Below are positions 2 to 19,874 of a stretch of DNA of 19,874 bases, in pieces. How positions within the stretch are numbered: position 1 is the first letter of the stretch; every line of letters begins with the position of its first letter. The translations under genes and the position numbers were made by a program. Source of the DNA: Breznakia blatticola (GTDB lineage Bacteria; Bacillota_I; Bacilli_A; Erysipelotrichales; Erysipelotrichaceae); assembly GCF_004365815.1 (NCBI RefSeq), contig NZ_SODD01000046.1:1-19874 (forward strand). The letters are read 5' to 3'. Below the pieces are notes generated by a model. The model made no database searches. It was not told where the DNA came from and was given only the letters and a program-made list of their open reading frames with translations.

Positions 2-94
2 TACCTTCCTTATTTTTATATGGTAATCTTACATTTCAATGTATCATCATACATGTAACAATCTAAGTTAGGTGCGCATCGGTTGAATTAAGCC
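2..94. repeat. Left copy of a perfect 93-bp terminal inverted repeat. Probably the inward-facing end of an IS or transposon copy that continues beyond the window.
   Basis: I reverse-complemented 19782..19874 by hand and it matches 2..94 at 93/93 positions. Identity stops exactly at 94/19782. The outer end reads AAATAAGGAAGGTA, which looks like an SD, so a gene may start just outside the window. An internal ATGTAT-catc-ATACAT hairpin is present. Confidence 0.9.
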
Positions 95-3317: not shown

Positions 3318-3348
3318 ACACAAAAAAAGAAGATGTGTTTACACCTTC
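3318..3348 (-). terminator. Probable terminator after the ABC permease gene.
   Basis: Minus strand reads GAAGGTGTaaACACatCTTC followed by TTTTTTTGTGTTTTC. The stem is imperfect. Confidence 0.5.
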
Positions 3349-6665: not shown

Positions 6666-7679
6666 TTACAATAAGTTTTTATAAAATCGACTATTGGGAA
6701 TTGTTATACTCACACAAGTACCTTTATGTACTGTACTATCTAGTCGTATAGACATATAAAGCTTGTCACATAACGCTTTACATAAATACAATCCCATACC
6801 TGTTGCTTTCTTTTCCAATCGTCCATTTTCACCAGTAAATCCACGATCAAATACTCGAGAAACATCTTTTGGATCAATTCCTATTCCTGTATCTGAAATA
6901 CGCACTTCAAGATCTTGATCATGTACTACAGTATCAATATGGATAGATCCACCAACATCTGTATACTTTAATGCATTATCTAATATCTGATGCAAAATGA
7001 ATTCTAACCATTTACTATCCATCGTGATCATGTGATCACTATTCGTAATTGATAATTTAATTTCTTTATAAATGAATCGCTGCTTTAAACGACGTACAGC
7101 TGCATTGATACTATCACTAAGCTGGATTTCTTTTAATACATAATCGCGTGAAGGATCACTACTTTTTGCATAATATAAAGCTTGCTCAATATAATCATTC
7201 ATCCGCTCGATTTCCAAGTCCAAAGCTTTACTTATTCCACTTGGATGATTGGTATTCATCAATTTCGCAGCGGTCAATGGACTTTTTATCTCATGAATCC
7301 ACATTTCGATATATTCTTTATAATCTTTTTCACGTTTCTCATATGTTGCAATTCGATCATTGTAGTTTTTATTAATTTCTTCTAAGGTTTGATATAGAAT
7401 TCTACCTTCTTGAAATTCTGGTTCATCAATAACTTCGATTAATAAACTTTTTTGATCCAGTCGTTCCAACTGGTCTTTAAGTTGTTTATAGTACCCATTT
7501 TTTTGTCGATACTCAATAAATAAAAAGCCAAAGATAAATGACCATATACTAACAAGAAAAAGTATAACGGTATCTATGCTTAGTTTAGAAGCAAGTAAAA
7601 AGAATCCTTGCAACGCACTTAACAATGCACCTAAAACTAAAATATAAAAATGCTCTTTTAGATATGTATACTTACTCAT
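6666..7679 (-). CDS. Intramembrane-sensing histidine kinase (BceS-like), 337 aa.
   Basis: Two N-terminal TM helices are separated by a very short loop. An H-box (IHEIKSPLTAA) and HATPase_c motifs (DNALKYT, DTGIGI, GTGMGL) are present. There is an 8-nt overlap with the RR gene. Confidence 0.92.
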   Translation of the reverse strand: MSKYTYLKEHFYILVLGALLSALQGFFLLASKLSIDTVILFLVSIWSFIFGFLFIEYRQKNGYYKQLKDQLERLDQKSLLIEVIDEPEFQEGRILYQTLEEINKNYNDRIATYEKREKDYKEYIEMWIHEIKSPLTAAKLMNTNHPSGISKALDLEIERMNDYIEQALYYAKSSDPSRDYVLKEIQLSDSINAAVRRLKQRFIYKEIKLSITNSDHMITMDSKWLEFILHQILDNALKYTDVGGSIHIDTVVHDQDLEVRISDTGIGIDPKDVSRVFDRGFTGENGRLEKKATGMGLYLCKALCDKLYMSIRLDSTVHKGTCVSITIPNSRFYKNLL

Positions 7680-8402: not shown

Positions 8403-9716
8403 TCATGATTCATCATGTAATGTAATCTCTAACTCATTTCCTGCATAATCAGAAATATAAAGTACACCTGTTACTCCATATGGACAAGTTAGAATCATTT
8501 GATTCAATGATGGATGTATCGTTATTTCTTTGTTGATACGTACTCCATTTTCATAATAGCGAATACTTTCAAAGTTAACTTGTGATGCATCATCAGAAAC
8601 ATAAATTGTATACGTTGTTCCATCAATTTCATACCCTTGAACTACCGGACTATGCATATCAAATGTAGAAATACTCACGATTCGCTCATCAATTTGTTTG
8701 CCATCCTTCATTAGAGTTACACTATAACTTCCATTACTTGCGATGACTAGACTCTCTTGATTATTCACAAGAATTTGATCATACTCCATATTGGATGTAG
8801 TTACAGTTAGTGTAATTGGCTGATTTGTCCAATTTGTTGGATGCTGAATATCTGTAATACTTGCGAGTTCTTGTACAACAGGTTGTACATCTTGTATTTC
8901 AGGTGCTACTGCTGGCTGTTTTTCTTCTTGATTTAACATGATTGCACCTACAACACCACTTACTCCAATCGTGGAAGCAAGTGCAATTTTTGCCCCTACA
9001 CCAATTCCTACTTTACTTCCTGCTGCTGCACTTCCTACACCTATTGCACTTGTTTGTAATGCGAGATTGATCACTGGAGCATGAATATTCTTTGCTGCTG
9101 AAGCATATGCAACTTGAATTAGCATTGGTGAAATTGCAAATCCCGGTAATGATTTTGCACTAATCCCCTGTTTTTCCAACATTACTTTTAGTTTACTACG
9201 AAGATGATTCAATCGTGAATATACCGTACCTTCAGGTATTTGTAAAATGTATGCAATCTCACTTACTTGAAGTTCATCATAGTATCGCAAGAGTGCAACA
9301 TTTCGTAATGACGCATTTAAAGAATGAATGCAATTATATACGATTGCTTGCATCTCTTTATTCTCTATGATTTCTTTTGCTGTTTGTTGATTTACATCTT
9401 CGAAATCTTCCACGCGAACATCATCTCCTAAATCCAGTAGTTTCTTTTTCTTACGCTCATAATCATGGCAAATATTCATTGTAATACGTTTCATCCAAGT
9501 ATAGAATGCTTCAGGACTCTCCAATGTATCAATCTTGTTGTAAATACGGATAAATACATCTTGAACAACATCTTTTGCTGTATGTTCATTATGAAAATAA
9601 TCCCATGCTGTAAAATATACATTGTTTGCATATATCTCGTACAATTTCTGAAATGCCTCTTGATCGTTTTGCTTAACTCGATTCACTAACTCTACTACTT
9701 CTCTTTTCTCTTTCAT
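8403..9716 (-). CDS. Membrane-tethered ECF-type sigma-70 family protein (sigma region 2 + region 4, TM segment, ~175-aa extracytoplasmic domain), 437 aa.
   Basis: Region 2 reads DVVQDVFIRIYNKI...FYTWMKRITMNICHDY. The region 4 HTH reads LLRYYDELQVSEIAYILQIPEGTVYSRLNHLRSKLK. A Gly/Ala-rich TM segment lies at about 8934..9002, followed by a beta-rich C-terminal domain. The ATG at 9716 follows GAGGGGTG. Confidence 0.85.
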   Translation of the reverse strand: MKEKREVVELVNRVKQNDQEAFQKLYEIYANNVYFTAWDYFHNEHTAKDVVQDVFIRIYNKIDTLESPEAFYTWMKRITMNICHDYERKKKKLLDLGDDVRVEDFEDVNQQTAKEIIENKEMQAIVYNCIHSLNASLRNVALLRYYDELQVSEIAYILQIPEGTVYSRLNHLRSKLKVMLEKQGISAKSLPGFAISPMLIQVAYASAAKNIHAPVINLALQTSAIGVGSAAAGSKVGIGVGAKIALASTIGVSGVVGAIMLNQEEKQPAVAPEIQDVQPVVQELASITDIQHPTNWTNQPITLTVTTSNMEYDQILVNNQESLVIASNGSYSVTLMKDGKQIDERIVSISTFDMHSPVVQGYEIDGTTYTIYVSDDASQVNFESIRYYENGVRINKEITIHPSLNQMILTCPYGVTGVLYISDYAGNELEITLHDES

Positions 9717-9810
9717 CGAACACCCCTCACACAAACTACCAGTTCTAAATCTTTTTCTTTCATACAATTATGTCGCTACCCAAATGGATGAAAGAATTAT
9801 GTAGTATTTG

Positions 9811-9860: not shown

Positions 9861-11267
9861 TTAGTTTTCTTTCTTTTTCTTAATTGCGATTGCACCAATG
9901 GCAACACCACTAATCAATAAAGTGTATAGAAGTGTATTTGTTGTATATACATCACCAGTTGCAACACTTGGTTTACTTGATAATCCTTTCGATGGATCAT
10001 TTACTGGTTCAGTTGGTGTCGGTTTAACTGGATCCACTGGTTTTACTGGATCAATTGGATCTATTGGATCAACTGGGTCCACTGGATCGATTGGATCGAC
10101 AGGGTCAACAATCGGTGGTTGTTTTATACTAACCTTGGATACGATAAACATATACTCTTCTCTTTTTGCATCATCACCAACTACATACCCATCTGGAGAA
10201 AATAGTCTTTGTGGGCGAACTTTAATTTCATCAACTCTGTAGTAATAGTTTAGTGCTTCTAGTTCAGCGGCACGTAAAATAAAACTATGTTTATCTAGTA
10301 CTTCCCAATTACAATCTTCGTGTAATTCAACTTTATTCATATTAATACCATCAATAGTTACTACATACCCATCATCTGTTTCGTCAGCAATTAAATCAAT
10401 TACATTCGACTTTATCGCAAAATCTGCTTTTGTACTTCTATCATAGAATCTGTACTGTACGGGATCACCACCAATTTCCAAAAATGGAAATTGATTTCCA
10501 CCTAATATAACTGATAAATAATCATAATTTGAATCTGCCAGAAAATACGGATTACTAAAAAGAGTATTAAGAATTCCAACCGTATGAACATCAGATAAAT
10601 CGAAATATTCATCTGTGATTGGAACACTTTCAATATCTATAGAACCAGTCACCTTAACTGCACCGTTAATACTCGTAAGTTTTGGTAATGAAGATAATGA
10701 AAATACATCAATTTCACTTTCTTCATGTAGTATCAACGATGAAAGACTATCCATCGCCCATAAATTTAATTCTCCTATTTCACGCATATGTGAAACATCA
10801 ACACTTGTAACATTAGGAACTACAGACAATGTTAAATAATACATGAAATCTAGTGCATCTAAATTTACTGTCTTAAGATCATCTGTTTCATATACTTCTA
10901 AGGCATTTAGTTTGCTTCCTTCAGGTATTACTAAATTTGAACCTTTAAAATGCCCTAAAGTAAGAGATTTTGTCTCCAGTAATTCAATTCCTTTGAAATC
11001 ACGAATATCATATTCATCGCAATCAATATCTAGATCTTTAAATGGATTATTGGTTGCAAGTTCTTCCTTTGTGATGATACCATCACTTGCAATTTCTTTA
11101 CTTTCTACATAACTTCTAAAATTTGCATCAGGAAAATTTTCCTTTGTAACATGCACATCACTATCTACAACATTCATAGGTTGTAATGTTTCCAAATGTT
11201 GTACATTTGGTTGCATGATTCCTAGTGATAATGAAATCATGGCTACTGTTTTCAATACTAAATTCAT
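9861..11267 (-). CDS. Cell-wall-anchored leucine-rich-repeat surface protein with a Pro-x-Asp stalk, 468 aa.
   Basis: It has a signal peptide (MNLVLKTVAMISLSLG...), LRR-like ~22-aa periodicity in the region L..L.L....L..VD.S, and a PVDPIDPVDPVDPIDPIDPVKPVDPVKP stalk. The C-terminus carries SVATGD, a hydrophobic segment and KKKKEN. An AGGAGGAG SD precedes the ATG at 11267. Confidence 0.85.
   Translation of the reverse strand: MNLVLKTVAMISLSLGIMQPNVQHLETLQPMNVVDSDVHVTKENFPDANFRSYVESKEIASDGIITKEELATNNPFKDLDIDCDEYDIRDFKGIELLETKSLTLGHFKGSNLVIPEGSKLNALEVYETDDLKTVNLDALDFMYYLTLSVVPNVTSVDVSHMREIGELNLWAMDSLSSLILHEESEIDVFSLSSLPKLTSINGAVKVTGSIDIESVPITDEYFDLSDVHTVGILNTLFSNPYFLADSNYDYLSVILGGNQFPFLEIGGDPVQYRFYDRSTKADFAIKSNVIDLIADETDDGYVVTIDGINMNKVELHEDCNWEVLDKHSFILRAAELEALNYYYRVDEIKVRPQRLFSPDGYVVGDDAKREEYMFIVSKVSIKQPPIVDPVDPIDPVDPVDPIDPIDPVKPVDPVKPTPTEPVNDPSKGLSSKPSVATGDVYTTNTLLYTLLISGVAIGAIAIKKKKEN
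10021..10110. repeat. Ten tandem 9-bp units (GGATCNAYT-like) encoding the P-x-D stalk.
   Basis: Units read directly from the sequence: ggtttaact ggatccact ggttttact ggatcaatt ggatctatt ggatcaact gggtccact ggatcgatt ggatcgaca gggtcaaca. Confidence 0.85.
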
Positions 11268-11464
11268 TCCTTCTCCTCCTGTTAATATTTTATTAACCAC
11301 ACAACAATCCTTAACACTTTCTTGCACACGGATAGCAACGAGATCGATTATTCATATTAAGGATCCAAGAATATTCAGTTGAATATTTCTTTCAATACAT
11401 AGACGTAGCACATTTCGCTAACCATCAAACTTTTTTTACTTTTTATCAGCTCCTTACTTTTGCA

Positions 11465-11497
11465 TATAAAAAAACAGCTCGCACAATTTTGAACTGT
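11465..11497 (-). terminator. Terminator-like hairpin inside the sigma2-LRR intergenic region.
   Basis: Minus strand reads ACAGTTC-aaaattgtgc-GAGCTGT (one G-U pair), followed by TTTTTTTAT. Confidence 0.55.
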
Positions 11498-11717
11498 TTG
11501 TAAGGTTAAGCTATATTTGTCTAATTATACCGATATGACAAAAACTGTAATTTGGATAGACTAAAAAAATCCCTATTACATTACTTTCCATTATTGGCAC
11601 ATATACACATAGAGTACACACATACTCTACTTTCATAGTAAACAAGAAAATGAAAACTGTAAAGAAAAAGGATAGATATCTTTATTGTGATATTTTATGT
11701 ATGTTATAGATAATCCA

Positions 11718-11860
11718 GCAAAAAGAAAACAGCCTTTGCGTTCAGGGTAGCAAAAGACTGTTCTCCAACTTCGTTTATGTGTGATGGAAGTTTTGAAGGT
11801 ATGATTTTCCCTCTTGTATCACCCTTCACTTATTAGACGCTTTTTATAACGTATATCTTC
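11718..11860 (-). ncRNA. Copy A of a ~140-nt repeated two-hairpin element (candidate sRNA or 3'-UTR element), ending in an intrinsic terminator.
   Basis: It is colinear with copies B and C: GAAGAT...GTCTA.TAAG.GAAGGGT...CCTT..ACTTC[CA-rich loop]GAAGT, then a second hairpin CAGTCTTTTGC/GCAAAGGCTG (11731..11760) and TTTTCTTTTTG. It starts 16 nt after the sigma-2 stop codon. Confidence 0.45.
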
Positions 11861-11876
11861 AAAAAAGTTTGTTTTT

Positions 11877-13208
11877 TTATCCATTACCATCCCGGAGTAC
11901 CAATTTTAGCTCGTTTCCAGCATGATCATAGATGTAGACAATCTCTCTACTTCCGTATGCGCAATCAAGCGAAATGGTATTTGTTGATGGATCAAAACGA
12001 ATGTCTTTTTGAATATACTTCCCGTCTTTCTCACATACCGTTTGTGAGAAATCAATTCCGGATAGTGCATCAGCTAATGTAATCGTATATGATGTTTGGC
12101 TAATTGTATAATCAGGTACTGTTGGACTTGCAAAATCAAAGTTTTCAATACTTACTCTTTGCTCATCAATTTGTTTTCCTTCATACATCAAAGTGACTAC
12201 ATATTCACCATTATCTACAACTGTTAAATCTTGATTTCCATTAAGTAGTATTTCATCATATACATCACTTGTCGTTGTTACTTGCAAAGTGTATGCCGTA
12301 TTCGTCCAAGCCGTTGGATATGTAATATCTTTTATTTTTGCATGTTCTTTTACTGCAGTTGCTGGTTGTTGAACAATTGGATCTGGGTGATTATCTTCTA
12401 ATGGCGCACTTTGTGGTTGATTAAAAAAGTATAATCCTACTAAACTTGCTACACCAACAGTGGAAACGAGTGCTACCTTAGTTGATGCCATCCACCCAGA
12501 TTTCGTACTTGCCGTTGTTAATGCTTCTTTACTTACTCCAATAAGCGCAGCAGAAGACATAGTTACAGGAACTGAAATATGATTTGCACCAGCTTCAAAA
12601 GCAAGTTTCAATAACGTCGGAGTTAATACAAAACCTGACAAACTACGAGAAGATATCCCTTGTTCTTCAAGTACTTCTTTTAACTTTGCCTTCATACTAT
12701 GTAATCTAGAATGTACAGTTCCTTCAGGAATTTGTAATACATCAGAAATCTCAGAAACCGATAGTTCATCATAATATCGAAGAATTCCAACCGTACGAAG
12801 TGGTGTACGTAACGATTGTATCCCTTCATATATGGTTTGTTGAAGTTCTTTATTTTCTAAAATTGCGCTAGCATCTTTTTGATTGAAGTCCTCAAAGTCT
12901 TCTATTGTATATTCACTTCCCAAATCTACTACCTGGTCTTTCTTTTTATCATAGTCATAACATACATTATAGGTAATTCGAATAATCCAAGTATAAAATG
13001 CACCTGGATTATCTAATTTATGAATGTTTTTATGTATTCGAATAAACACATCTTGAACAACATCACGTGCAGTCACTTCATCATGAAAATAGTTTAGCGC
13101 TTTGAAATACACATTATTTACATACGCTCGATATAGTTCTTCAAATGCTTCTTGGTTTCCTTCTTTTACCTTCACTATCAGGTCTTTTAATTTCTCTTTA
13201 TCTTTCAT
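11877..13208 (-). CDS. Membrane-tethered ECF-type sigma-70 family protein, paralog of 8403..9716, 443 aa.
   Basis: The architecture and block-wise sequence conservation match those of 8403..9716 (DVVQDVFIRIH..., LRYYDELSVSEISDVLQIPEGTVHSRL). The TM segment lies at about 12423..12491 and the C-terminal domain is homologous. I chose the ATG at 13208, ~9 nt after AAGGAA. Confidence 0.85.
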   Translation of the reverse strand: MKDKEKLKDLIVKVKEGNQEAFEELYRAYVNNVYFKALNYFHDEVTARDVVQDVFIRIHKNIHKLDNPGAFYTWIIRITYNVCYDYDKKKDQVVDLGSEYTIEDFEDFNQKDASAILENKELQQTIYEGIQSLRTPLRTVGILRYYDELSVSEISDVLQIPEGTVHSRLHSMKAKLKEVLEEQGISSRSLSGFVLTPTLLKLAFEAGANHISVPVTMSSAALIGVSKEALTTASTKSGWMASTKVALVSTVGVASLVGLYFFNQPQSAPLEDNHPDPIVQQPATAVKEHAKIKDITYPTAWTNTAYTLQVTTTSDVYDEILLNGNQDLTVVDNGEYVVTLMYEGKQIDEQRVSIENFDFASPTVPDYTISQTSYTITLADALSGIDFSQTVCEKDGKYIQKDIRFDPSTNTISLDCAYGSREIVYIYDHAGNELKLVLRDGNG

Positions 13209-13394
13209 TTCACACATTTCCTTGATTTATTTTATTTATAACGGCATAGCGCCACTTCACTAATTATTGCTACCCTTCAAATCGAATATCATGTATCGAA
13301 TAATAGAAATTTTGTCCCCCTTAGTCTTTGATATAGCTTTAGCTTTCAATGTTGGTAAGGAGGACATTTCATTTATGTTAAGAAATATTTATGT

Positions 13395-16300
13395 TTATTT
13401 CTTTTGTAGTTTCTTGCGTGCAAATAATAAGCAAATAACAAACCCGCTCATCATTACACAAGCAAGTAATGCATTAGCTGCACTTACATCACCTGTTTTC
13501 ACACTTGGAATCACATCTAATTCCTTCACTGGAGATGTTGATGGTAATTCTGTAAATGGATCTTCAGGTTTTTCTGGTGTTGGTGGAGTTTCTTTTGGAT
13601 CTTCCACTTTCTTCGTATTATATGCTTTTACAACAATCACACCAGTTGTATCTTTTGTAACTTCAAATTCTACATTGGTTGCATCTAATACATATCCTTC
13701 AGGTGCTCCTACTTCTTTAAAGTAGTATGAACCTTCTGGTAAGTCTTTTACTTCAATGCGTCCATCTGCATTTGTTGTATATACCTCATCATTTACTTTT
13801 GTTGCATTTCCTTTTTCATCTACAACGTATAGATCAAATTCAGCACCCTCTAATGTAATCGCTTCATTACTATCTGTATCATACTTAATTAACTCTACAT
13901 CTGCAACATTTGGTGGAGTTTTCGTATTGTATGCTTTTACGATGACTTTCGTATTTGTGTTTTCATCAATTTCAAACATCACTTTTGCATCATCTAAGTC
14001 ATATCCATTTGGTGCTTTTACTTCTTTAAAGTAATATGAACCTTCAAGTAGATCTTCAACTGTGATTTTTCCATCTTTATCTGTAACATATGGAGTTGTG
14101 TTTACTTTCGTATCACCATTAGTAGCATCCACGACATATAAATCAAATTCTGCTCCTTCTAATGTTACTGATTCATTTGTATCTGCGTCATATTTAATCA
14201 GTTGAACATCTTCTGTATGTGGTGGGATTTTTTTATTATATGCTTTCACTTGCATCGTTGCTTTATCATCTTTGCTGATTGTAAATGGAATATGTTTGTC
14301 ATCTAGCTCATATCCTGAAGGAGCTTTTACTTCTTTAAAGTAATATGAACCTTCAAGTAAATCATTTACTTCGATTTCACCATACATATTTGTTGTGTAT
14401 GGTGTGCTATTCATTTTTGTATCACCATTATTATCCACTAGATATAAATCAAACTCAGCACCTTCAAGCGTAGTTGTTTCATTGCTGTCTAGATCATATT
14501 TTGTTAATTCTACACCACCAGTATATATTTTTTGGTTATACACAGTTGTATACACAACCTTTTGTGCATTTGCTTGTTCGATAACTTCAAATACAATCGG
14601 TTCATTAGACTCTACACCATTGTGTTGATAAACCGCACCGCTCATTTCATAATTTGGTGCTGCTTTTACTTCCTTCCAATAGTAGTAACCATCTTCAAGT
14701 CCACTAACAGTAATCATTCCCCAACTATTTGTAGCTCTCTTTGCAACGAGTGTATCACTACTACTTGGTGTTGTTCCATTTGCTACTTTATATAATTCGA
14801 ATTCTGCATTTGCGATAGTCAGTTGATTCTCTTCATCTTTAGTTGCTAAATCGTATTTATACAGTCCAGCACTTCCTTTTGCACCACCAATAATGGTTCC
14901 ACTATATTCGCTAAACGAAAGTTTAATCTCATTTGATTGCTCACTATTGTTGTTCCAGTATAAGTGTGCTTGATTCGTATATTCTGCACCTTCTGCCATT
15001 CCCTCAGGAAATCTTGCTTTAAAGTTTACACGGTATGCAGGAATTACATAATCAACAGCTGCTAACTCTTTATCTAAATACTCAGCTTGTTTATCTGTAT
15101 AGTAACGGTATTTTACGTCTACACCATTTTCCTCTTTTTCATACGTTAATGTCTTTAAATATGCCAAGAATTTACTATCACCGTTTGTTGGTTCTTGCGC
15201 CTTTACTGCTGGTAAATCTGTGAACTTAGCACCAACATATGATTTACTCGTTGGATCTTTATCTCCTAAATCACCAAAATAAACTATCATTGTTGTTTTA
15301 TCTAAACCGTTTGTATCTTTTTCACGATATAAAACAAGCGATTGACGATCCACATTCTCTAAAAATGCTGCCTTAAATTCATCATAGCTTAGACCAGTTG
15401 CAAATGAATAGTTATCATTTAACTTTAATGTCTCTGTACTGTCTTTATGATATTCGACTTTATCAAAGATACCTCTGGTATCTGCTCCATTTGTTTTATC
15501 TTCTGTATATAAAGCATACCATGCATATTGGCGATCTGAATATGCTCCTATTCCACCATTGTCAATATTTCGTTCTTCATAATCCAATTCATTTCCATCT
15601 TTATCTGTAGTCGCAAATACACGCATAATATGTTGAATTGAAATGGAATCAATTGTTTGGTTATAAGTCAATTCATCTTCCATGTACATTTTTGCACGTG
15701 CATTTGTAATTTTTCCAGACTCATCTTTTCTTCCATTGTATAAAGATATATTGTAATCTACACCTAAGTTAATCGTCCAACTTGTATACCCTTCTTTCTC
15801 ATAGAAGACACCTTCTTTTGAGATTTTTGTAGAATTATCATATGGATTTGCCCCAGTATCTTCAACTGGTTGTTTTTCTGGTGTTTGAATGTTACCTCCA
15901 TCAAGAATCGCATTACCATTGATTACAAGTCCTGAATCTAAACCATTTCCAATAATTTTACCTTCTGCACTTACTGATCCACCTTTAACTACATATGGAC
16001 TATTTGGATCTTCTCCAGCAGGAAGTTCTAAAATTGTAATTGCAATTGTTGTTGTTCCCGTTTTGTCATCTGTTTTAATGGTAAATTCTGCAATTTTATT
16101 ATTCGATCCATCATATAATGGAAATGATTTATCTGCAGTATCAAATACAAGTCCAAACCCTTGACCTGGTACTTTCGAATTATTAATTTCTTCAATTACA
16201 AATTTAAATGTATCGCCTTCTTTAAGCAAATTATCACCATCTGTAACATTTGTATATAAAGCTTCCCAAGCAATATTTAGTCTAACTTGACTATAGTTTT

Positions 16301-16517
16301 TTACTTGATAATTACCTTCTAGGTCAACCAAATCTTTGATATCCACAAAATTTAGTCCATTTGTTACTTCCACAGTTACCGTTGGTGCTTTAATCTTGTG
16401 ATATGCATTACCGTAATCTACATCACCTTCTGCTGCTAGTGCTGTTCCACCACTAGCAAATATCATGTTAATCATCATAAAAGCCGCTAATAAAACACTA
16501 AAAAATTTCTTCTTCAT
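13395..16517 (-). CDS. Large cell-wall-anchored adhesin: signal peptide, ~510-aa N-terminal adhesin region, four SpaA/Cna-B-like (prealbumin-fold) repeats and a sorting signal, 1040 aa.
   Basis: The signal peptide ends ...GTALA|AEG. The repeats carry LEGAEFDLY.VD...G.I.V.DL.EGSYYFKEVKAP.GY. The C-terminus carries PSVKTGD, a hydrophobic segment and RKKLQKK. An AAGGAGA SD is present. Confidence 0.9.
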   Translation of the reverse strand: MKKKFFSVLLAAFMMINMIFASGGTALAAEGDVDYGNAYHKIKAPTVTVEVTNGLNFVDIKDLVDLEGNYQVKNYSQVRLNIAWEALYTNVTDGDNLLKEGDTFKFVIEEINNSKVPGQGFGLVFDTADKSFPLYDGSNNKIAEFTIKTDDKTGTTTIAITILELPAGEDPNSPYVVKGGSVSAEGKIIGNGLDSGLVINGNAILDGGNIQTPEKQPVEDTGANPYDNSTKISKEGVFYEKEGYTSWTINLGVDYNISLYNGRKDESGKITNARAKMYMEDELTYNQTIDSISIQHIMRVFATTDKDGNELDYEERNIDNGGIGAYSDRQYAWYALYTEDKTNGADTRGIFDKVEYHKDSTETLKLNDNYSFATGLSYDEFKAAFLENVDRQSLVLYREKDTNGLDKTTMIVYFGDLGDKDPTSKSYVGAKFTDLPAVKAQEPTNGDSKFLAYLKTLTYEKEENGVDVKYRYYTDKQAEYLDKELAAVDYVIPAYRVNFKARFPEGMAEGAEYTNQAHLYWNNNSEQSNEIKLSFSEYSGTIIGGAKGSAGLYKYDLATKDEENQLTIANAEFELYKVANGTTPSSSDTLVAKRATNSWGMITVSGLEDGYYYWKEVKAAPNYEMSGAVYQHNGVESNEPIVFEVIEQANAQKVVYTTVYNQKIYTGGVELTKYDLDSNETTTLEGAEFDLYLVDNNGDTKMNSTPYTTNMYGEIEVNDLLEGSYYFKEVKAPSGYELDDKHIPFTISKDDKATMQVKAYNKKIPPHTEDVQLIKYDADTNESVTLEGAEFDLYVVDATNGDTKVNTTPYVTDKDGKITVEDLLEGSYYFKEVKAPNGYDLDDAKVMFEIDENTNTKVIVKAYNTKTPPNVADVELIKYDTDSNEAITLEGAEFDLYVVDEKGNATKVNDEVYTTNADGRIEVKDLPEGSYYFKEVGAPEGYVLDATNVEFEVTKDTTGVIVVKAYNTKKVEDPKETPPTPEKPEDPFTELPSTSPVKELDVIPSVKTGDVSAANALLACVMMSGFVICLLFARKKLQKK
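13614..14876. repeat. Intragenic tandem repeats encoding the SpaA/Cna-B-like domains. Three units have a 309-bp period and a fourth is more divergent.
   Basis: The marker string acttctttaa recurs at 13711, 14020 and 14329, which gives exact 309-bp spacing. The antisense shadow ORFs on the plus strand repeat the same peptide (YP.GA.TSLK). Confidence 0.85.
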
Positions 16518-16671
16518 AACTTGTCTCCTTATCTTTCACACATACAATTCACACACTGACCAAGTTTGTAATTCACTGCCTACTTTGCTTACACATTCAA
16601 AGTGCAACGAGAGTTCCATATCCTAGAAATCTATCTTTGAAGTCATCTACACAAACAGTTATCTATCAAAA

Positions 16672-16717
16672 CACTAAAAAAGAGTGTCTATGCTATGTTG
16701 AACAACAAGACACTCTT
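16672..16717 (-). terminator. Strong rho-independent terminator ~155 nt upstream of the large adhesin start codon.
   Basis: Perfect 10-bp stem AAGAGTGTCT/AGACACTCTT (16680..16689 and 16708..16717), followed on the minus strand by TTTTTAGTGTTTTG. Confidence 0.8.
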
Positions 16718-16834
16718 AAAAAATGTTGCCATTTTTCACCTAGAGAGTTTCCTTACCCACACATAACACACTGATATTTACACACTTTAACTCAATTTTG
16801 TATATCTTTCCCACTCCACACAAGTTCAAGTATT

Positions 16835-16976
16835 GAAAAGCAACCTTTAATTTTGAAGATTGCTTTCAGACTTCAAATTAAATGTGTGTATGGAAGTCCT
16901 GAAGTTCAACTCTTTATTTTCTTTTTTCTATGAGTATCGCTTCATTTATATAGACTTCAATTTTTCTAAAATCTTC
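16835..16976 (-). ncRNA. Copy B of the ~140-nt repeated two-hairpin element. It has its own upstream promoter, and its second hairpin lacks a U-tract.
   Basis: GAAGATTTT...GTCTAtaTAAatGAAgcgaTACTCA...GACTTC[catacacacatttaattt]GAAGTC, followed by GAAAGCAA/TTGCTTTTC. It is colinear with A and C. Confidence 0.45.
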
Positions 16977-16981
16977 GGAAA

Positions 16982-17010
16982 TTTATAATTTTTTTTCATT
17001 TTTTATTCAA
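16982..17010 (-). promoter_or_regulatory. Candidate sigma-A promoter (TTGAAT-N17-TATAAA) driving element B.
   Basis: On the minus strand, TTGAAT is at 17005..17010 and TATAAA at 16982..16987, with a 17-nt spacer. The predicted TSS falls at the GAAGAT where the A/B/C homology begins. Confidence 0.5.
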
Positions 17011-17061
17011 ATTTAATACCATTACTATTTGATTGATAGTTTTGATTGTTGTAAGGTGTAT

Positions 17062-17097
17062 TTCAATCAAAACAAAAGAACAATTTCTCGTTCTTTT
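17062..17097 (-). terminator. Rho-independent terminator downstream of the Cna-type adhesin gene.
   Basis: Stem AAAAGAAC-gagaaatt-GTTCTTTT followed by GTTTTGATTG on the minus strand. Confidence 0.7.
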
Positions 17098-17107
17098 TAA
17101 AATATAT

Positions 17108-17151
17108 AATCGTATCTTATTATCATATTTAACAGTATATAAGATACGATT
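17108..17151. other. Perfect 13-bp inverted repeat with an 18-nt loop, function unknown.
   Basis: aatcgtatcttat (17108..17120) pairs with ataagatacgatt (17139..17151). It lies ~100 nt after the Cna gene stop codon. Confidence 0.7.
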
Positions 17152-17253
17152 GTTATTGTCCACTAAGTTACATTATATAACAATTAGTTATAACTAAATA
17201 AACATATTGTTAATAACCTATAGTTTTAAACGTGAGAGTAACACTCATGTTTC

Positions 17254-19506
17254 TTATACTTTGCGTCTTCTACGAATTGCTACTAGTATACATAGAGATA
17301 TCCCACTAACAATCATCATTGCATATAGTATCGCTTTTGGACTTTGATCACCAGTACTCACTTTGCTTGAGGATACCACTGATGGATTAATAAGCAATTC
17401 CTTCTCTGGTTTCTTTGAAGGATTTGCTGGTGTCACAATTTCGGGTTGTTTAATCACTGGTGTTTCTACTACTGGTGGTTGTTCTATCATTGGATCTTCT
17501 GGTACAACAACTTCCTTCTTGTACGTATTAATAATCGTAAAATCCGTTTCTGTATTTTTTATTACTTTGGATGTATAGTTATTTGCTACTTCAAGTTCCA
17601 CAACTGTATAGGTTACCGATTTCCCATTAACTAACAACGGTAAATCATTCCATGTATATGTCCAATGATCTTGTTTTGTCACTATTGCATCAAATGTCGC
17701 AATTGCTACATGTTCATCTGTAGACTGAATCAGTTGAACCTTGATTTCATCAGGACGAATATCTAAATCATCATTCTCCCATTCTTTACTTACTGAAATG
17801 GATGTAAGTGGAAGTTTATATGTATTGGTAATTGTATAGTCATTTTTTGCATGTTCCTCAACACTTGCTGTGTAATTTTCTGCTACATGAATTTCATTTA
17901 CCGAATATGTAACTTCTTTATTTCCTTGAAAAGCAGGTAAATCATCCCATTGATATTCCCACACATTGTTGAGATCTTTTTCTATTTTTACGGTGTCCAC
18001 AATTGATGTATTTCCATCAACTGATTTTTGTAATTGCACTTCAACAAATGATGGACGTACCCACTGATCATCATCACCAGCCCACTTCTTAGTTACATGT
18101 ACACTGGTTCTTGGTACTTGATACGTATTTACAATCGTGAAATTATTAAATGAATTTTCAATTACTGTCTCAGTATAGTTATTTGGTACACTTGCTTCAT
18201 GTACTGAATATGTTACATATGTAGTACCTTCCAGCATTGGTAAATTGGTGAACTCATATTGCCATTGATTTTTTGCATTCAAATCAATTTGACCAATTTG
18301 CACTGGGCTTCCACCTTTTAGTGTTTTGTATAAATTCACAGTTACAGTTTCTGGATGTGTAATTTCTGGATCATCACTTTCCCATACTTTATGAACTTTC
18401 ACGCTAGTTGATGCATCACCAGAACCAACTCCACCAGTTACAAGACGTTGATCATATGCTTCGATTGTCCCAGATTCATAGTTATCTCCTTCAATCGTAG
18501 CTTTATTTAAATAGATTTGTGAAACTTTATTGTCTAAGATGCGTGTAGAATACTTAATATATAAAGATTTTCCATCCGCTTTCGCTTCTTGTTTTGTTGC
18601 TTCATCATTTGGGGTAAATACTCCACCGTTTTCTGGTAATGCTGTGGATGCACCACTAACAAGATTACCCAAATGTACTGTAAATCCATCACTTTGAAGT
18701 ACAAATCGCTCTGGATTTGTATTTGATGTATAGTATCCAAAATACTTCCAAGATGATGCTCCTTTATCATTCCAATCAATACGTGCGACTTGCACTGTGA
18801 TTGCTGGCTTTGTTGGATCATCTACTACAAGTTCATGTTTTCCAATAATTTCATCAATGACACTCGCATTGTAAATATCCTCAGCAGCAACATTTACACG
18901 AATCGTCCAATCGATAGTATTGGTTGTCGTATTCGCTGTTCCCCACTTTGTGATTTTTTCATCACGTGGTTCATAATTTGCTTTACCTACCCAAACATCT
19001 TGACTACTTGTATCACTGAATTGAAGTACAAGATCTTCAGCACCTGCTACTTCATTGCGATCCCATGATGCAACAACAAAAAAGTATCCTTTACGATTCT
19101 GCTTATTCTTAAAATAATCATTGAATGTAATGGTAATACTCTTATCTGATGCATTCATACTTGCATTTGCAACTACAATTTCCGTTTCATTATTTTCTGC
19201 GTCAATTTCTTTAAGCTCAAATTCAAGATTTTTCACACTTAATTGCGAAGGTAGTTGAATAACTACAGTATCTCCACTATTTACTTCATAAGTATCATCA
19301 AATGCATATTCATAATACACACGCATCGAATCATAGTATCCATAGTATTGACTATCTTCACCTGTATACGTTGTTACTTTTCCACTTACGATAAAATCGT
19401 TTTGTGAAATGCTACCTTGTGCTTCTGTAGCTAGTATTTTTCCCGTGTACGAGAACATTCCTGCAAGCACAAAAAAAACTACCACAATTTTACTTATTTT
19501 CCTCAT
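17254..19506 (-). CDS. Cna-type collagen-adhesin-like surface protein: signal peptide, collagen-binding-type A region, three Cna-B repeats, Pro-rich stalk and a sorting signal, 750 aa.
   Basis: The A region has SGDTVVIQLPSQL and IDWTIRVNV. The Cna-B repeats read V.K.W..DD...RP..V.V.L......W.Y.W.DLP......V.Y.V.E..V...Y. The C-terminus carries KVSTGD, a hydrophobic segment and RRRRKV. An AAGGAGGAA SD is present. Confidence 0.92.
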   Translation of the reverse strand: MRKISKIVVVFFVLAGMFSYTGKILATEAQGSISQNDFIVSGKVTTYTGEDSQYYGYYDSMRVYYEYAFDDTYEVNSGDTVVIQLPSQLSVKNLEFELKEIDAENNETEIVVANASMNASDKSITITFNDYFKNKQNRKGYFFVVASWDRNEVAGAEDLVLQFSDTSSQDVWVGKANYEPRDEKITKWGTANTTTNTIDWTIRVNVAAEDIYNASVIDEIIGKHELVVDDPTKPAITVQVARIDWNDKGASSWKYFGYYTSNTNPERFVLQSDGFTVHLGNLVSGASTALPENGGVFTPNDEATKQEAKADGKSLYIKYSTRILDNKVSQIYLNKATIEGDNYESGTIEAYDQRLVTGGVGSGDASTSVKVHKVWESDDPEITHPETVTVNLYKTLKGGSPVQIGQIDLNAKNQWQYEFTNLPMLEGTTYVTYSVHEASVPNNYTETVIENSFNNFTIVNTYQVPRTSVHVTKKWAGDDDQWVRPSFVEVQLQKSVDGNTSIVDTVKIEKDLNNVWEYQWDDLPAFQGNKEVTYSVNEIHVAENYTASVEEHAKNDYTITNTYKLPLTSISVSKEWENDDLDIRPDEIKVQLIQSTDEHVAIATFDAIVTKQDHWTYTWNDLPLLVNGKSVTYTVVELEVANNYTSKVIKNTETDFTIINTYKKEVVVPEDPMIEQPPVVETPVIKQPEIVTPANPSKKPEKELLINPSVVSSSKVSTGDQSPKAILYAMMIVSGISLCILVAIRRRRKV
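17518..18411. repeat. Three tandem Cna-B domain-encoding repeats (~97-100 codons each).
   Basis: Protein repeats at aa 366-463, 467-563 and 568-663, counted by hand from the start at 19506. Confidence 0.75.
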
Positions 19507-19573
19507 GGTTCCTCCTTATAAAACACACTTTGGTTTCACACACCAATTGTCTCTTTCAAGACTCAGCGAGGCT

Positions 19574-19603
19574 ATTATACTATGTTCATTTCAATTTTTC
19601 CAA
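19574..19603 (-). promoter_or_regulatory. Candidate sigma-A promoter of the Cna-type adhesin gene (TGGAAA-N17-TATAAT).
   Basis: A perfect TATAAT lies on the minus strand at 19574..19579 and TGGAAA at 19597..19602. This is ~68 nt upstream of the ATG and downstream of the element C terminator. Confidence 0.55.
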
Positions 19604-19621
19604 TGTAATAATATTTTTCTT

Positions 19622-19758
19622 TAAAACAAAAAGAAAAGCAATCCAGGTAGCATATGGATTGCTTTTCAAACTTCTTGGTGTGTGTGTGAAGTCCAAAAGG
19701 ATAACTCATATTGAGTACCCTTTCACCTTAATAGACTCTTTGAATAAAGAAAATCTTC
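19622..19758 (-). ncRNA. Copy C of the ~140-nt repeated two-hairpin element, ending in a strong intrinsic terminator.
   Basis: GAAGATTTT...GTCTAtTAAGgtGAAagGGTACTCA...GGACTTC[acacacacaccaa]GAAGTTT, followed by a perfect 13-bp stem GAAAAGCAATCCA/TGGATTGCTTTTC and TTTTTGTTTT. Confidence 0.5.
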
Positions 19759-19781
19759 ACTTTTTTCGATTATTTTATAAT

Positions 19782-19874
19782 GGCTTAATTCAACCGATGC
19801 GCACCTAACTTAGATTGTTACATGTATGATGATACATTGAAATGTAAGATTACCATATAAAAATAAGGAAGGTA
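19782..19874. repeat. Right copy of the perfect 93-bp terminal inverted repeat.
   Basis: Exact reverse complement of 2..94. It abuts AT-rich non-coding DNA whose sequence aligns with the promoter region of element B. Confidence 0.9.

What the first reader, a model, noticed from the sequence alone, without database searches (positions are those of the whole stretch)
11718..19758. Three same-orientation copies of a ~140-nt two-hairpin element in the intergenic regions (candidate novel sRNA family)
Copies A (11718..11860), B (16835..16976) and C (19622..19758) align colinearly on the minus strand. The shared order is GAAGAT(T/A)T, GTCTA(-/t)(a/t)TAA, GAA, G(G)TAC, CCTT/CTTC, then hairpin 1 with stem ACTTC/GAAGT and a CA-rich loop, then hairpin 2. 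The sixth base pair of hairpin 1 changes as A-U (A), G-C (B) and G-U (C). Hairpin 2 keeps its structure with a different stem sequence in A (CAGUCUUUUGC/GCAAAGGCUG) than in B and C (GAAA(A)GCAA.../...UUGCUUUUC). A and C share the loop sequence UGCUACC. A and C end in U-tracts. B has a TTGAAT-N17-TATAAA promoter whose predicted TSS coincides with the start of the homology. C retains the TATAAA right at the border of the terminal inverted repeat. Conservation that begins at a TSS, together with structure-preserving substitutions, argues for a functional RNA rather than a duplication remnant.
Basis: seen in the sequence. Interest (0 to 1): 0.78.

Follow-up and report, generated by a model that had tools for sequence, protein, structure and literature searches.

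The report
Sibling small RNAs with ECF-type promoters
The three repeats are real copies of an undescribed small structured RNA gene in an insect-gut bacterium (Breznakia), each apparently driven by a stress-type sigma-factor promoter, and each showing a CA-rich loop that matches "UGUGUGA" boxes at the start of the neighbouring sigma-factor and surface-adhesin genes.

Summary
Copies A, B and C are colinear on the minus strand. Three more copies sit at equivalent places in a second genus, Erysipelotrichaceae MTC7, whose sigma factor is only 57% identical. The flanking intergenic DNA there is not conserved.

The RNA has three hairpins, not two:
- P1 varies in sequence but keeps its pairing.
- P2 has the invariant stem ACUUC/GAAGU and a CA-rich loop.
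- P3 is a terminator-like hairpin.

On the six distinct copies, 96% of cells pair and 22 of 28 pairs carry double changes. Slid controls give 39-56% and 3-6.

The locus encodes two SigW-like, membrane-anchored ECF sigma factors. The proposed sigma-A promoter of B is not conserved.

The CA loops are complementary to (A/U)UGUGUGA boxes. These lie within 45 nt upstream of the start codon of all 10 sigma and adhesin genes, against 3 of 27 other genes.

Best reading: sibling base-pairing sRNAs under ECF-sigma control. No transcript data exist, and a 5'-leader role is not excluded. Nothing matches in Rfam or the searched literature, so this is a new family of a known kind.

The parts
11832..11861 (-). 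Copy A, predicted ECF-type promoter: TGAAGA (-35), 16 nt, CGTCTA (-10)
   Evidence: Motif hit; coordinates. The orthologous MTC7 copy D3 reads TGAACC-N16-CGTCTT. The promoter role is inferred; no transcript data exist.
11720..11831 (-). Copy A RNA: P1 11828-11794, P2 11792-11767 (loop CAUCACACAUAAAC at 11786-11773), P3 terminator hairpin plus U-tract 11766-11720
   Evidence: Covariance-model hit at 86.7 bits. The minimum-free-energy fold gives three hairpins. Covariation.
16948..16977 (-). Copy B, predicted ECF-type promoter: CGAAGA followed by TTTT, 15 nt spacer, AGTCTA
   Evidence: The promoter role is inferred.
16830..16947 (-). Copy B RNA: P1 16943-16901, P2 16899-16868 (loop CAUACACACAUUUAAUUU at 16892-16875), P3 16867-16835 with no clean U-tract
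   Evidence: Found at E 3e-4 by model R2, which was trained without B. Fold.
16676..16824 (-). GU-rich stretch with four GUGUG boxes, ending in a strong second terminator, directly 3' of copy B. It may be the 3' part of a long form of B.
   Evidence: Sequence. The counterpart in MTC7 lies downstream of D2. In both lineages the predicted fold of the long form pairs the CA segment with the first GU box.
19729..19759 (-). Copy C, predicted ECF-type promoter: TGAAGA followed by TTTT, 16 nt spacer, AGTCTA
   Evidence: The promoter role is inferred.
19623..19727 (-). Copy C RNA: P1 19724-19695, P2 19694-19668 (loop ACACACACACCAA at 19687-19675), P3 terminator hairpin plus U-tract 19667-19623
   Evidence: Fold energy z-score -4.1. 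This copy seeded model R1.
19511..19544 (-). GU boxes (GGUGUGUGAA ... AGUGUGUU) just 5' of the Shine-Dalgarno sequence of the Cna_B adhesin gene; putative target site
   Evidence: (D19). Loop C pairs here at -16.0 kcal/mol.
16525..16558 (-). GU boxes (AGUGUGUGAA, UAUGUGUGAAA) 5' of the Shine-Dalgarno sequence of the SpaA adhesin gene. The 16-nt block AAUUGUAUGUGUGAAA is identical in MTC7.
13206..13223 (-). GU box AAUGUGUGAA between the Shine-Dalgarno sequence and the true start codon (ATG at 13208) of sigma factor 1
   Evidence: MTC7 has the same arrangement.
9714..9736 (-). GU box UUUGUGUGAGG 5' of the true start codon (ATG at 9716) of sigma factor 2
11292..11309 (-). GU box UUGUUGUGUGG in the 5' region of the LRR-like surface protein gene (start codon at 11267)
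11877..13208 (-). Sigma factor 1: SigW-like ECF domain, one transmembrane helix and a ~170-aa outer domain. Candidate sigma factor for the sRNA promoters.
8403..9716 (-). Sigma factor 2, a paralogue with the same architecture

Best explanation
The three elements are paralogous genes for a small structured RNA of about 100-115 nt.

**Anatomy.**
- Each gene carries its own ECF-type promoter: -35 GAAGA (or GAACC) with a T-tract, 16-17 nt, then -10 (C/A)GTCTA. The likely start site is at the conserved RTGAA.
- P1 is a 5' stem-loop whose sequence drifts freely while its pairing is kept. It probably serves as a 5' stabiliser.
- P2 has an invariant ACUUC/GAAGU stem that displays a CA-rich loop (UCACACAUA, ACACACAC).
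- P3 is a long hairpin that acts as an intrinsic terminator in A and C.

**Proposed mechanism.**
- The promoters are most likely read by the two membrane-anchored, SigW-like ECF sigma factors encoded in the same locus.
- The CA loop is the seed. It is complementary to (A/U)UGUGUGA(A) 'GU boxes' in the translation-initiation regions of both sigma genes and of every sortase-type surface-protein gene of the locus.
- Pairing there would most probably block ribosome loading. In the sigma genes the box lies between the Shine-Dalgarno sequence and the AUG.
- The result would be negative feedback on the sigma factor and post-transcriptional control of the adhesins.

**Shown.** The copies, their conservation across two genera, the three-helix structure with covariation, the promoter-like motif and its exclusive coupling to the RNA, and the loop/box complementarity and its specificity.

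**Inferred.** That the sigma factors use these promoters, that transcripts end at P3, that pairing occurs in trans, and that the outcome is repression.
For: **Copies and conservation.**
- There are six distinct copies. Breznakia has A, B and C. MTC7 has D1 at 6695-6806, D2 at 7011-7118 and D3 at 11389-11504.
- Model R2 finds the two held-out copies B and D3 at E 3e-4 and 2.6e-5. Other hits are at E 0.04 or worse, and there is nothing below E 0.09 in 1.2 Mb of unrelated ECF-sigma loci.
- Cross-genus alignment gives z 11.5 for A~D3 and 9.4 for B~D2. Flanking intergenic DNA gives 0.3-1.0.

**Structure.**
- 96.3% of cells are paired and 22 of 28 pairs have changes on both sides. Slid controls give 39-56% paired and 3-6 such pairs, and 0 of 500 shuffles reach the observed values.
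- RNAalifold predicts the same three helices independently.
- Each RNA folds on its own into P1-P2-P3, except that P2 of D1 is absent from its minimum-free-energy fold.
- All four differences between the window and strain L001 inside the three RNAs fall in P1 apical loops.

**Promoter.**
- The relaxed motif GAA[GC][ACT]-N16/17-[CG]TCT[AT] hits only the element copies in the window, L001 and L004.
- D3 reads TGAACC-N16-CGTCTT.
- ECF promoters are described as having a -35 AAC with a proximal T-tract, a CGT(A/C) -10 and a 14-17 nt spacer (PMC5758882).
- The adjacent sigma factors are ECF-type and closest to SigW.

**Targets.**
- GUGUG/UGUGU lies within -45..-1 of 10 of 10 sigma and adhesin genes, against 3 of 27 other genes. 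Fisher p = 8e-7.
- The boxes are about 10-fold enriched in intergenic DNA, on the sense strand only.
- P2 loops pair with regulon initiation regions at -8 to -16 kcal/mol, against -2 to -9 for other Breznakia genes.
- The seed UCACACAUAAA is identical in A and D3. Its targets, UAUGUGUGAA in spaA and AAUGUGUGA in the sigma gene, are identical in both genera. The D3 loop UGUCACACAU forms 10 perfect pairs with AUGUGUGACA(UG) of the MTC7 sigma start region.

**Independent genes.**
- A, C and D1 have long stems followed by U-tracts.
- D1 is followed by the promoter of D2, not by a coding gene.
- A sigma-70-like promoter lies between the C terminator and the Cna_B gene.
Against: - There are no transcript data of any kind. 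Start sites, 3' ends and expression are all predictions.
- The -35 element is GAAGA in 4 of 6 copies, not the canonical GAAC.
- The only promoter-like motifs of this type in the locus lie upstream of the 'adhesin then sigma' gene pairs: B before spaA-sigma1, A before LRR-sigma2, D1/D2 before spaA-sigma. This is what an autoregulated ECF operon with a long leader would look like.
- B and D2 lack clean U-tracts, so they may be read through.
- CA/GU complementarity is of low complexity, so short matches arise easily. Two unrelated MTC7 genes, rSAM and NAGLU2, also score -13 to -15 kcal/mol.
- Only two lineages, six independent sequences, support the covariation, and the alignment was fitted to the model structure.
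- P3 covariation is expected for any terminator.
- More distant paralogues of the sigma factor have neither the RNA nor GU boxes. The system is therefore narrow.
Confidence: 0.58

Rival explanations
1. **5' leader or attenuator.** The ECF-type promoter is the real, autoregulated promoter of the downstream adhesin-sigma operon. P1-P2-P3 is a long 5' leader whose P3 terminator is conditionally read through. The CA segment then acts in cis on GU boxes of the same transcript.
For: - The order 'element, adhesin gene, sigma gene' recurs three times.
- No other ECF-like promoter motif is found upstream of the sigma genes.
- P3 of B and D2 lacks a clean U-tract.
- In predicted folds of the read-through forms of B and D2, the CA segment pairs with the first downstream GU box in both genera.
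Against: - A, C and D1 have strong canonical terminators.
- B and D2 are followed by a second strong terminator before spaA.
- D1 is followed by another copy, and D3 by an unrelated DUF488 gene that has no GU box.
- The GU boxes lie 3' of the terminators, so they cannot form an antiterminator.
- A sigma-70-like promoter sits between C and its gene.
- The VWA adhesin gene in L001 has GU boxes but no element upstream.
Confidence: 0.2
2. **Protein-binding RNA.** The CA-rich loops, and separately the GU boxes, are recognition sites for an RNA-binding protein. The small RNAs would titrate or recruit that protein instead of pairing with mRNA.
For: - Repeated short motifs in loops, multiple sibling copies and clusters of GU boxes (four in 16824-16676) resemble sponge architectures.
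- Two opposite motifs need not pair with each other.
Against: - No candidate RNA-binding protein gene is seen in the locus.
- Seed and box are exact complements over 8-10 nt. They are conserved together in both genera, which base pairing explains directly.
Confidence: 0.1
3. **Promoter duplication only.** What is conserved is a promoter plus a terminator, and the transcript has no function of its own.
For: The most invariant blocks include the promoter boxes. Terminators always show covariation.
Against: - P1 keeps its pairing through complete sequence turnover.
- The P2 stem and the 11-nt loop core are identical across genera, while the flanks are randomised.
- Between-strain differences avoid everything except the P1 loops.
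Confidence: 0.05

Closest known systems
LhrC1-5 sibling sRNAs of Listeria monocytogenes (recalled from my own knowledge, not re-read here)
   Same: - Several ~110-nt sibling copies in a Firmicute.
- Each copy has its own promoter and terminator.
- They are switched on by a cell-envelope signalling system.
- Short seed motifs are displayed in loops.
- Targets are initiation regions of mRNAs for surface proteins, including an LPXTG adhesin.
   Different: - The LhrC seed is UCCC, which pairs with the Shine-Dalgarno sequence. Here the seed is (CA)n against UGUGUGA boxes.
- LhrC is driven by the LisRK two-component system, not by an ECF sigma factor.
- There is no sequence or structure homology. 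No Rfam family reaches even E 10 at any copy.
Sigma-E-dependent sRNAs MicA, RybB and MicL of enterobacteria (own knowledge)
   Same: ECF-sigma-dependent promoters drive small terminator-ended RNAs. These repress synthesis of abundant envelope proteins and feed back on the sigma factor's own activity.
   Different: - The enterobacterial RNAs are Gram-negative, Hfq-dependent and carry a 5'-end seed.
- Their feedback is indirect, through outer-membrane protein load. Here the sigma mRNA itself carries the target box.
- There is no homology.
csRNAs (CiaRH-dependent sRNAs) of streptococci (own knowledge)
   Same: They form a family of 4-6 paralogous sRNAs in which promoter box and RNA are conserved as one unit. 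They carry stem-loops and a single-stranded region complementary to initiation regions.
   Different: - Their promoter is the CiaR direct repeat TTTAAG-N5-TTTAAG.
- Their seed is anti-Shine-Dalgarno and anti-AUG.
- Neither feature is present in these copies, by reading the sequences.
ECF sigma factors with a fused transmembrane C-terminal extension, such as IutY (ECF243) and SCO4117 (ECF52), PMC8999054
   Same: The sigma factors next to the RNAs have a sigma domain, a transmembrane helix and an outer domain in one chain. This suggests activation by regulated proteolysis.
   Different: - The outer ~170-aa domain has no Pfam match.
- The family is small and largely confined to Breznakia and its relatives.
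- No zinc-binding anti-sigma domain was detected.

Membership tests
Any Rfam 15 family | Covariance-model score at or above the family's gathering threshold | tested here: not met
   A cmscan in E-value mode (E up to 10) over the whole window and over L004 6500-11700 gives no hit at window copies A-C. The hits that overlap the MTC7 copies are weak hairpin matches of 19-25 bits, far below gathering scores of 55-100.
Trans-encoded base-pairing sRNA (the kind, not a homology family) | Own promoter directly upstream of the RNA | tested here: inconclusive
   A conserved bipartite motif sits at fixed distance in 6 of 6 copies. No start-site data exist.
Trans-encoded base-pairing sRNA (the kind, not a homology family) | Own intrinsic terminator that yields a discrete short transcript | tested here: inconclusive
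   A, C and D1 have 13-19 bp stems followed by U-tracts. B, D2 and D3 lack a clean U-tract after P3 and end at a further hairpin.
Trans-encoded base-pairing sRNA (the kind, not a homology family) | Conserved single-stranded seed with conserved complementary sites in target mRNAs | tested here: met
   The loop core UCACACAUAAA is identical in A and D3. GU boxes occur at 10 of 10 regulon initiation regions against 3 of 27 others (p = 8e-7). Predicted duplexes are -8 to -16 kcal/mol. This is in silico only.
Trans-encoded base-pairing sRNA (the kind, not a homology family) | Detected transcript and a regulatory effect on targets | not testable with these tools
   No expression data are available for Breznakia or MTC7.
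ECF (group 4) sigma-dependent promoter | A -35 element containing AAC, often followed by a T-tract | tested here: inconclusive
   D3 has TGAACC followed by TTTTT. B, C and D2 have GAAGA followed by TTTT, A has GAAGAT and D1 has GAAGC. The T-tract and position fit, but AAC is present in only 1 of 6 (criteria from PMC5758882).
ECF (group 4) sigma-dependent promoter | A -10 element CGT(A/C) at 14-17 nt from the -35 | tested here: met
   CGTCTA (A), CGTCTT (D3), AGTCTA (B, C, D2) and CCTCTA (D1), with a 16-17 nt spacing between GAAGA and GTCTA.
ECF (group 4) sigma-dependent promoter | A cognate ECF sigma factor encoded nearby | tested here: met
   Two ECF sigma genes lie in the window. TIGR02937 scores 96 bits against a cut-off of 42.9, and the closest solved structure is SigW at E 9e-22. 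Actual use of these promoters was not tested.
LhrC family | Repeated UCCC seed motifs in loops or single strands; Rfam model | tested here: not met
   There is no Rfam hit. UCCC occurs only sporadically, in the D1 and D2 loops, and is not conserved.
Transcription-attenuation leader | An alternative antiterminator pairing that overlaps the 5' arm of the terminator | tested here: not met
   No alternative helix competing with P3 appears in the folds of A, C or D1. The only long-range pairing, the CA segment with a downstream GU box in B and D2, encloses P3 and does not disrupt it.

The most novel reading that the evidence does not exclude
The locus is a self-contained envelope-homeostasis circuit of a Gram-positive bacterium. 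In this reading:
- A membrane-tethered ECF sigma factor has, as its only direct promoters in the locus, three sibling sRNA genes.
- Once released, the sigma factor makes CA-loop sRNAs.
- These sRNAs pair, partly loop-to-loop, with UGUGUGA boxes. They shut down translation of the sortase-anchored adhesins and of the sigma factor itself.
- The GU-rich RNA downstream of B acts as a built-in sponge.

This would be a functional analogue of the sigma-E/MicA/RybB loop, evolved independently in Erysipelotrichaceae.
Probability: 0.3. Interest if true: 0.65.

Novelty: new member of a known kind. Interest (0 to 1): 0.5.

Why it matters
**If confirmed.**
- This adds an sRNA family that is absent from Rfam.
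- ECF-sigma-driven regulatory RNAs are well known in enterobacteria, but to my knowledge few examples are known from Firmicutes. This would be a clear one.
- Its logic is unusually easy to read. Promoter, seed and target boxes are all recognisable in one 10-kb locus, and they are conserved together in a second genus.
- It links a poorly understood class of membrane-anchored sigma factors to post-transcriptional control of sortase-type adhesins in gut symbionts of insects.
- It gives directly testable predictions through compensatory mutations of the CA loop and the GU box.

**Limits.**
- The phylogenetic range is very narrow: Breznakia, MTC7 and two metagenomic relatives.
- The kind of regulator is familiar.
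- Everything beyond structure and complementarity is inference.

Tried and rejected
**Searches that found nothing.**
- Rfam in permissive mode on the window and on the MTC7 locus gave only noise.
- BLAST of the locus and of single copies against plasmid and phage collections gave no match. The element is therefore not a known mobile repeat.
- Two scans of JGI metagenome contigs found nothing. One used the sigma C-terminal domain and one used an A/D3-type P2 pattern.
- The GTDB genome scan with the sigma alignment returned only MTC7 plus generic ECF sigma loci. Those 79 loci (1.2 Mb) contain no copy.
- Two further word-indexed protein searches added nothing. The C-terminal fragment alone returned no hit at all, although a 96% identical protein is in the database, so this is a tool limitation.
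- Short contigs of two further sigma homologues (L085, L086) carry GU boxes at the sigma start but no RNA copy within reach.
- Four loci of more distant sigma paralogues have neither the RNA nor GU boxes, apart from the L087 sigma gene.

**Readings rejected.**
- Whole-RNA duplex folding against initiation regions was uninformative, so I replaced it with loop-only duplexes.
- A small protein: reading frames from the conserved (A/G)TG differ in length and frame between copies and have no Shine-Dalgarno sequence (by reading).
- DNA-level operator sites for the neighbouring OmpR-type regulator: the boxes occur on the sense strand only, lie next to start codons, and are also present in MTC7, where that regulator is absent from the neighbourhood.
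- The sigma-A promoter of B as the family's promoter: it is not conserved.
- C~D1 orthology: sequence does not support it, because C aligns best with D2.

Full report
**Context**

The window is a chromosomal locus of a Breznakia strain (Erysipelotrichaceae). The sigma gene at 11877-13208 is 96% identical to a protein of 'unclassified Breznakia', and a 284-kb Breznakia contig (L001) is syntenic.

All genes lie on the minus strand. In 5'-to-3' order on that strand they are:
- a Cna_B adhesin (19506-17254);
- a SpaA-domain adhesin (16517-13395);
- sigma factor 1 (13208-11877);
- an LRR-like surface protein (11267-9861);
- sigma factor 2 (9716-8403);
- an OmpR-type response regulator and a histidine kinase;
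- two small ORFs;
- a BceAB-like ABC transporter;
- a P-type ATPase.

The adhesins have signal peptides and C-terminal sorting signals of the type (S/V)-K/V-x-TGD, followed by a hydrophobic stretch and a basic tail.

**Checking the observation**

The three copies are present as described and align colinearly. The box GAAGA-N14-18-GTCTA occurs three times in the window, only at the copies, against 0.14 expected.

Each copy folds into three hairpins, not two, with energies 2.6-4.1 sd below dinucleotide shuffles.

**Relatives**

The sigma family is tiny in the word-indexed protein collection, with five clusters. The one distant genome that carries it is Erysipelotrichaceae bacterium MTC7, whose sigma factor is 57% identical. 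Its organisation is 'SpaA adhesin gene, then sigma gene'.

A covariance model built from copy C alone found A and B. It also found three copies in MTC7:
- D1 and D2 lie in tandem upstream of spaA.
- D3 lies immediately 3' of the sigma gene, the same position as A in Breznakia.

A second model was trained on A, C, D1 and D2. It recovers the held-out B and D3 at E 3e-4 and 2.6e-5. Everything else scores E 0.04 or worse. Nothing scores better than E 0.09 in 1.2 Mb of unrelated ECF-sigma loci.

Cross-genus alignment scores are far above shuffles for the elements: z 11.5 for A~D3 and 9.4 for B~D2. They are at background for the adjacent intergenic DNA (z 0.3-1.0). The paralogue set therefore predates the split of the two genera and has been kept by selection. 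C aligns best with D2, not D1, so only A~D3 and B~D2 are clear orthologous pairs.

**Structure**

- On the model-guided alignment of nine rows (six independent sequences), 96.3% of cells form standard pairs.
- 22 of 28 pairs show changes on both sides. Sliding the 3' partners by 1-3 columns gives 39-56% paired and 3-6 such pairs. No shuffle out of 500 reaches the observed values.
- RNAalifold predicts the same three helices on its own.

Three cautions apply:
- The alignment was fitted to the structure.
- One row (D2) is shifted by one base in P2, so P2 'double changes' are overstated.
- P3 covariation is expected of any terminator.

The informative parts are P1 and P2. P1 shows complete sequence turnover with pairing retained in all six. 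P2 has the invariant core ACUUC/GAAGU.

Between the window and strain L001, all four differences inside the three RNAs lie in P1 apical loops.

**Promoter**

The conserved 5' block is the same in all six copies. It consists of:
- a T-rich stretch;
- GAA(G/C)(A/C), usually followed by TTTT;
- 16-17 nt;
- (C/A)(G/C)TCT(A/T);
- 5-6 nt;
- RTGAA.

D3 reads TGAACC-N16-CGTCTT. This matches the published description of ECF promoters: a -35 AAC with a proximal T-tract, a -10 CGT(A/C) and a spacer of 14-17 nt (PMC5758882).

The two sigma factors next door are ECF-type and closest to SigW. In the window, L001 and L004, the relaxed motif occurs only at the RNA copies.

That makes the RNAs about 100-115 nt long and makes P1 a 5'-terminal stem-loop. 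This is inference; nobody has mapped the start site.

**Targets**

Immediately upstream of the start codons of the sigma and surface-protein genes there are (A/U)UGUGUGA(A) boxes:
- They occur within -45..-1 of 10 of 10 such genes in Breznakia, MTC7 and two metagenomic contigs. They occur in 3 of 27 neighbouring genes of other function. Fisher p = 8e-7.
- One of the three exceptions is the first gene of a sensor operon just downstream of D3.
- The boxes are about ten-fold enriched in intergenic DNA and occur only on the sense strand. The only intergenic GU runs on the other strand are the complements of the P2 loops, apart from one at 3333.

The P2 loops are their complements:
- The loop core UCACACAUAAA is identical in A and D3.
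- It pairs perfectly with UAUGUGUGA in the spaA leader. That leader's 16-nt block AAUUGUAUGUGUGAAA is identical in both genera.
- It also pairs with AUGUGUGA between the Shine-Dalgarno sequence and the AUG of the sigma gene.
- In MTC7 the D3 loop UGUCACACAU forms ten consecutive pairs with AUGUGUGACA(UG).
- Loop-only duplex energies in Breznakia are -8 to -16 kcal/mol for the six regulon genes and -2 to -9 for the eight others. In MTC7 the separation is less clean, with two outliers.

The complementarity is of low complexity, so any single match is weak evidence. The systematic co-occurrence is what counts.

**Free sRNA or leader?**

Points in favour of free sRNAs:
- A, C and D1 have strong terminators.
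- D1 is followed by the promoter of another copy.
- D3 is followed by an unrelated gene.
- There is a second strong terminator between B or D2 and spaA.
- A sigma-70-like promoter (TTGGAA-18-TATAAT) lies between C and cnaB.

Points in favour of a leader role:
- The order 'element, adhesin, sigma' recurs.
- The sigma genes have no other ECF-like promoter.
- P3 of B and D2 has weak U-tracts.
- In predicted folds of read-through B and D2, the CA segment pairs with the first downstream GU box in both genera.

I rank the free-sRNA reading first, at roughly 0.55-0.6 including the pairing mechanism, and the leader reading second, at about 0.2. The two are not mutually exclusive.

**Comparison with known systems**

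No Rfam family matches at E up to 10. Plasmid and phage collections have no similar DNA. Full-text searches found nothing on regulatory RNAs of Breznakia or on this combination.

Functionally the closest systems are these (from my own knowledge, except where a paper is cited):
- the LhrC sibling sRNAs of Listeria, which are envelope-stress-induced and repress an LPXTG adhesin;
- the sigma-E-dependent MicA, RybB and MicL;
- the streptococcal csRNAs, in which promoter and RNA are conserved as a unit.

This element works like them on paper but is not a member of any of them. Seeds, promoters and structures all differ.

The sigma factors resemble the 'fused anti-sigma' ECF groups that are activated by proteolysis (PMC8999054).

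**Extent of the system**

An exhaustive profile-free search with the sigma C-terminal domain finds 94 cluster representatives. Most are 420-445 aa with the domain at the C-terminal end. They include several paralogues per Breznakia genome and a Coprobacillaceae MAG.

Four loci of these more distant paralogues have neither the RNA nor GU boxes. The exception is L087. Its sigma gene carries a GAACTTTT-N-GTCTT promoter-like site and a GGUGUGUGUCUU near its Shine-Dalgarno sequence.

The RNA family therefore seems confined to the sigma1/sigma2 clade.

**Verdict**

- The 'functional RNA family' reading is supported.
- The promoter and boundary details need correcting.
- The mechanism is plausible and testable but unproven.
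- This is a new family of a familiar kind of regulator, with a narrow taxonomic range. I score interest at 0.5.

Noticed in passing
window 2-94 and 19782-19874: A perfect 93-nt inverted repeat sits at the two ends of the window. On the left it cuts off a PfkB-family kinase gene (68-463, only the first ~116 of 302 profile positions). On the right it replaces the sequence that strain L001 has upstream of copy C. It is most likely a repeat or IS end at which the assembly broke, or a fold-back artefact. It is not a biological border of the RNA element.
   Followed up: partly
window 11877-13208 and 8403-9716 (minus strand): The two sigma factors are single chains made of a SigW-like ECF domain, one transmembrane helix and a ~170-aa outer domain with no Pfam match. 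An exhaustive search finds 94 cluster representatives with the same architecture, several per Breznakia genome. This looks like a little-studied family of membrane-tethered sigma factors.
   Followed up: partly
window 16676-16824 (minus strand); L004 7120-7260: Directly after copy B lies a stretch with four GUGUG boxes and a conserved AAGGRAACUC, ending in a strong terminator. MTC7 has the same arrangement after D2. It could be the tail of a long form of B that masks its own seed, or a separate GU-rich RNA that acts as a sponge.
   Followed up: partly
window 11598-11630 (minus strand): About 90 nt after the terminator of copy A there is an 8-bp hairpin, GUAGAGUA/UACUCUAU, that displays a UGUGUG loop and is followed by a second GUGUAUAUGUG. 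A sigma-70-like TTTACA-17-TACTAT precedes it. It lies ~330 nt upstream of the next gene, so its transcript and role are unknown.
   Followed up: partly
L001 9934 and 13392 (window equivalents ~13275 and ~9776, minus strand): GGGTAGC lies 65-67 nt upstream of the start codons of both Breznakia sigma genes. It is the exact complement of the P3 loop GCUACCC of copy A. It is not present in MTC7. It could be a second contact site, a remnant of the gene duplication, or chance.
   Followed up: partly
window 13208-13217 (minus strand): The mechanical ORF start of sigma factor 1 (ATG at 13217) lies inside the GU box (AUGUGUGAAAUG). Homologues start at the second ATG (13208, MKDKEKL). In the same way, sigma factor 2 starts at 9716, not at the TTG at 9767.
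   Followed up: yes
window 17254-19506, 13395-16517, 9861-11267 (C-termini): All three surface proteins end in a non-canonical sorting signal (SKVSTGD, SVKTGD, and SVATGD in the L086 homologue), followed by a hydrophobic stretch and a basic tail instead of LPXTG. This suggests a sortase with unusual specificity.
   Followed up: no
L004 12205-12235: In MTC7 the first gene of a periplasmic-binding-protein, histidine kinase and AraC-type regulator operon downstream of D3 carries two GU boxes (CAUGUGUGUAAAG, UAUGUGUGUCAA) in its 5' region. It may belong to the same regulon.
   Followed up: no
L087 9885-9990: A distant paralogue of the sigma factor, from a JGI metagenome, has GAGAACTTTT-N13-GTGTCTTA upstream of its own gene and repeats GGTGTGTGTCTTA next to its Shine-Dalgarno sequence. 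No sRNA copy is detected there. This hints that the -10 element and the GU box may be related in origin.
   Followed up: no
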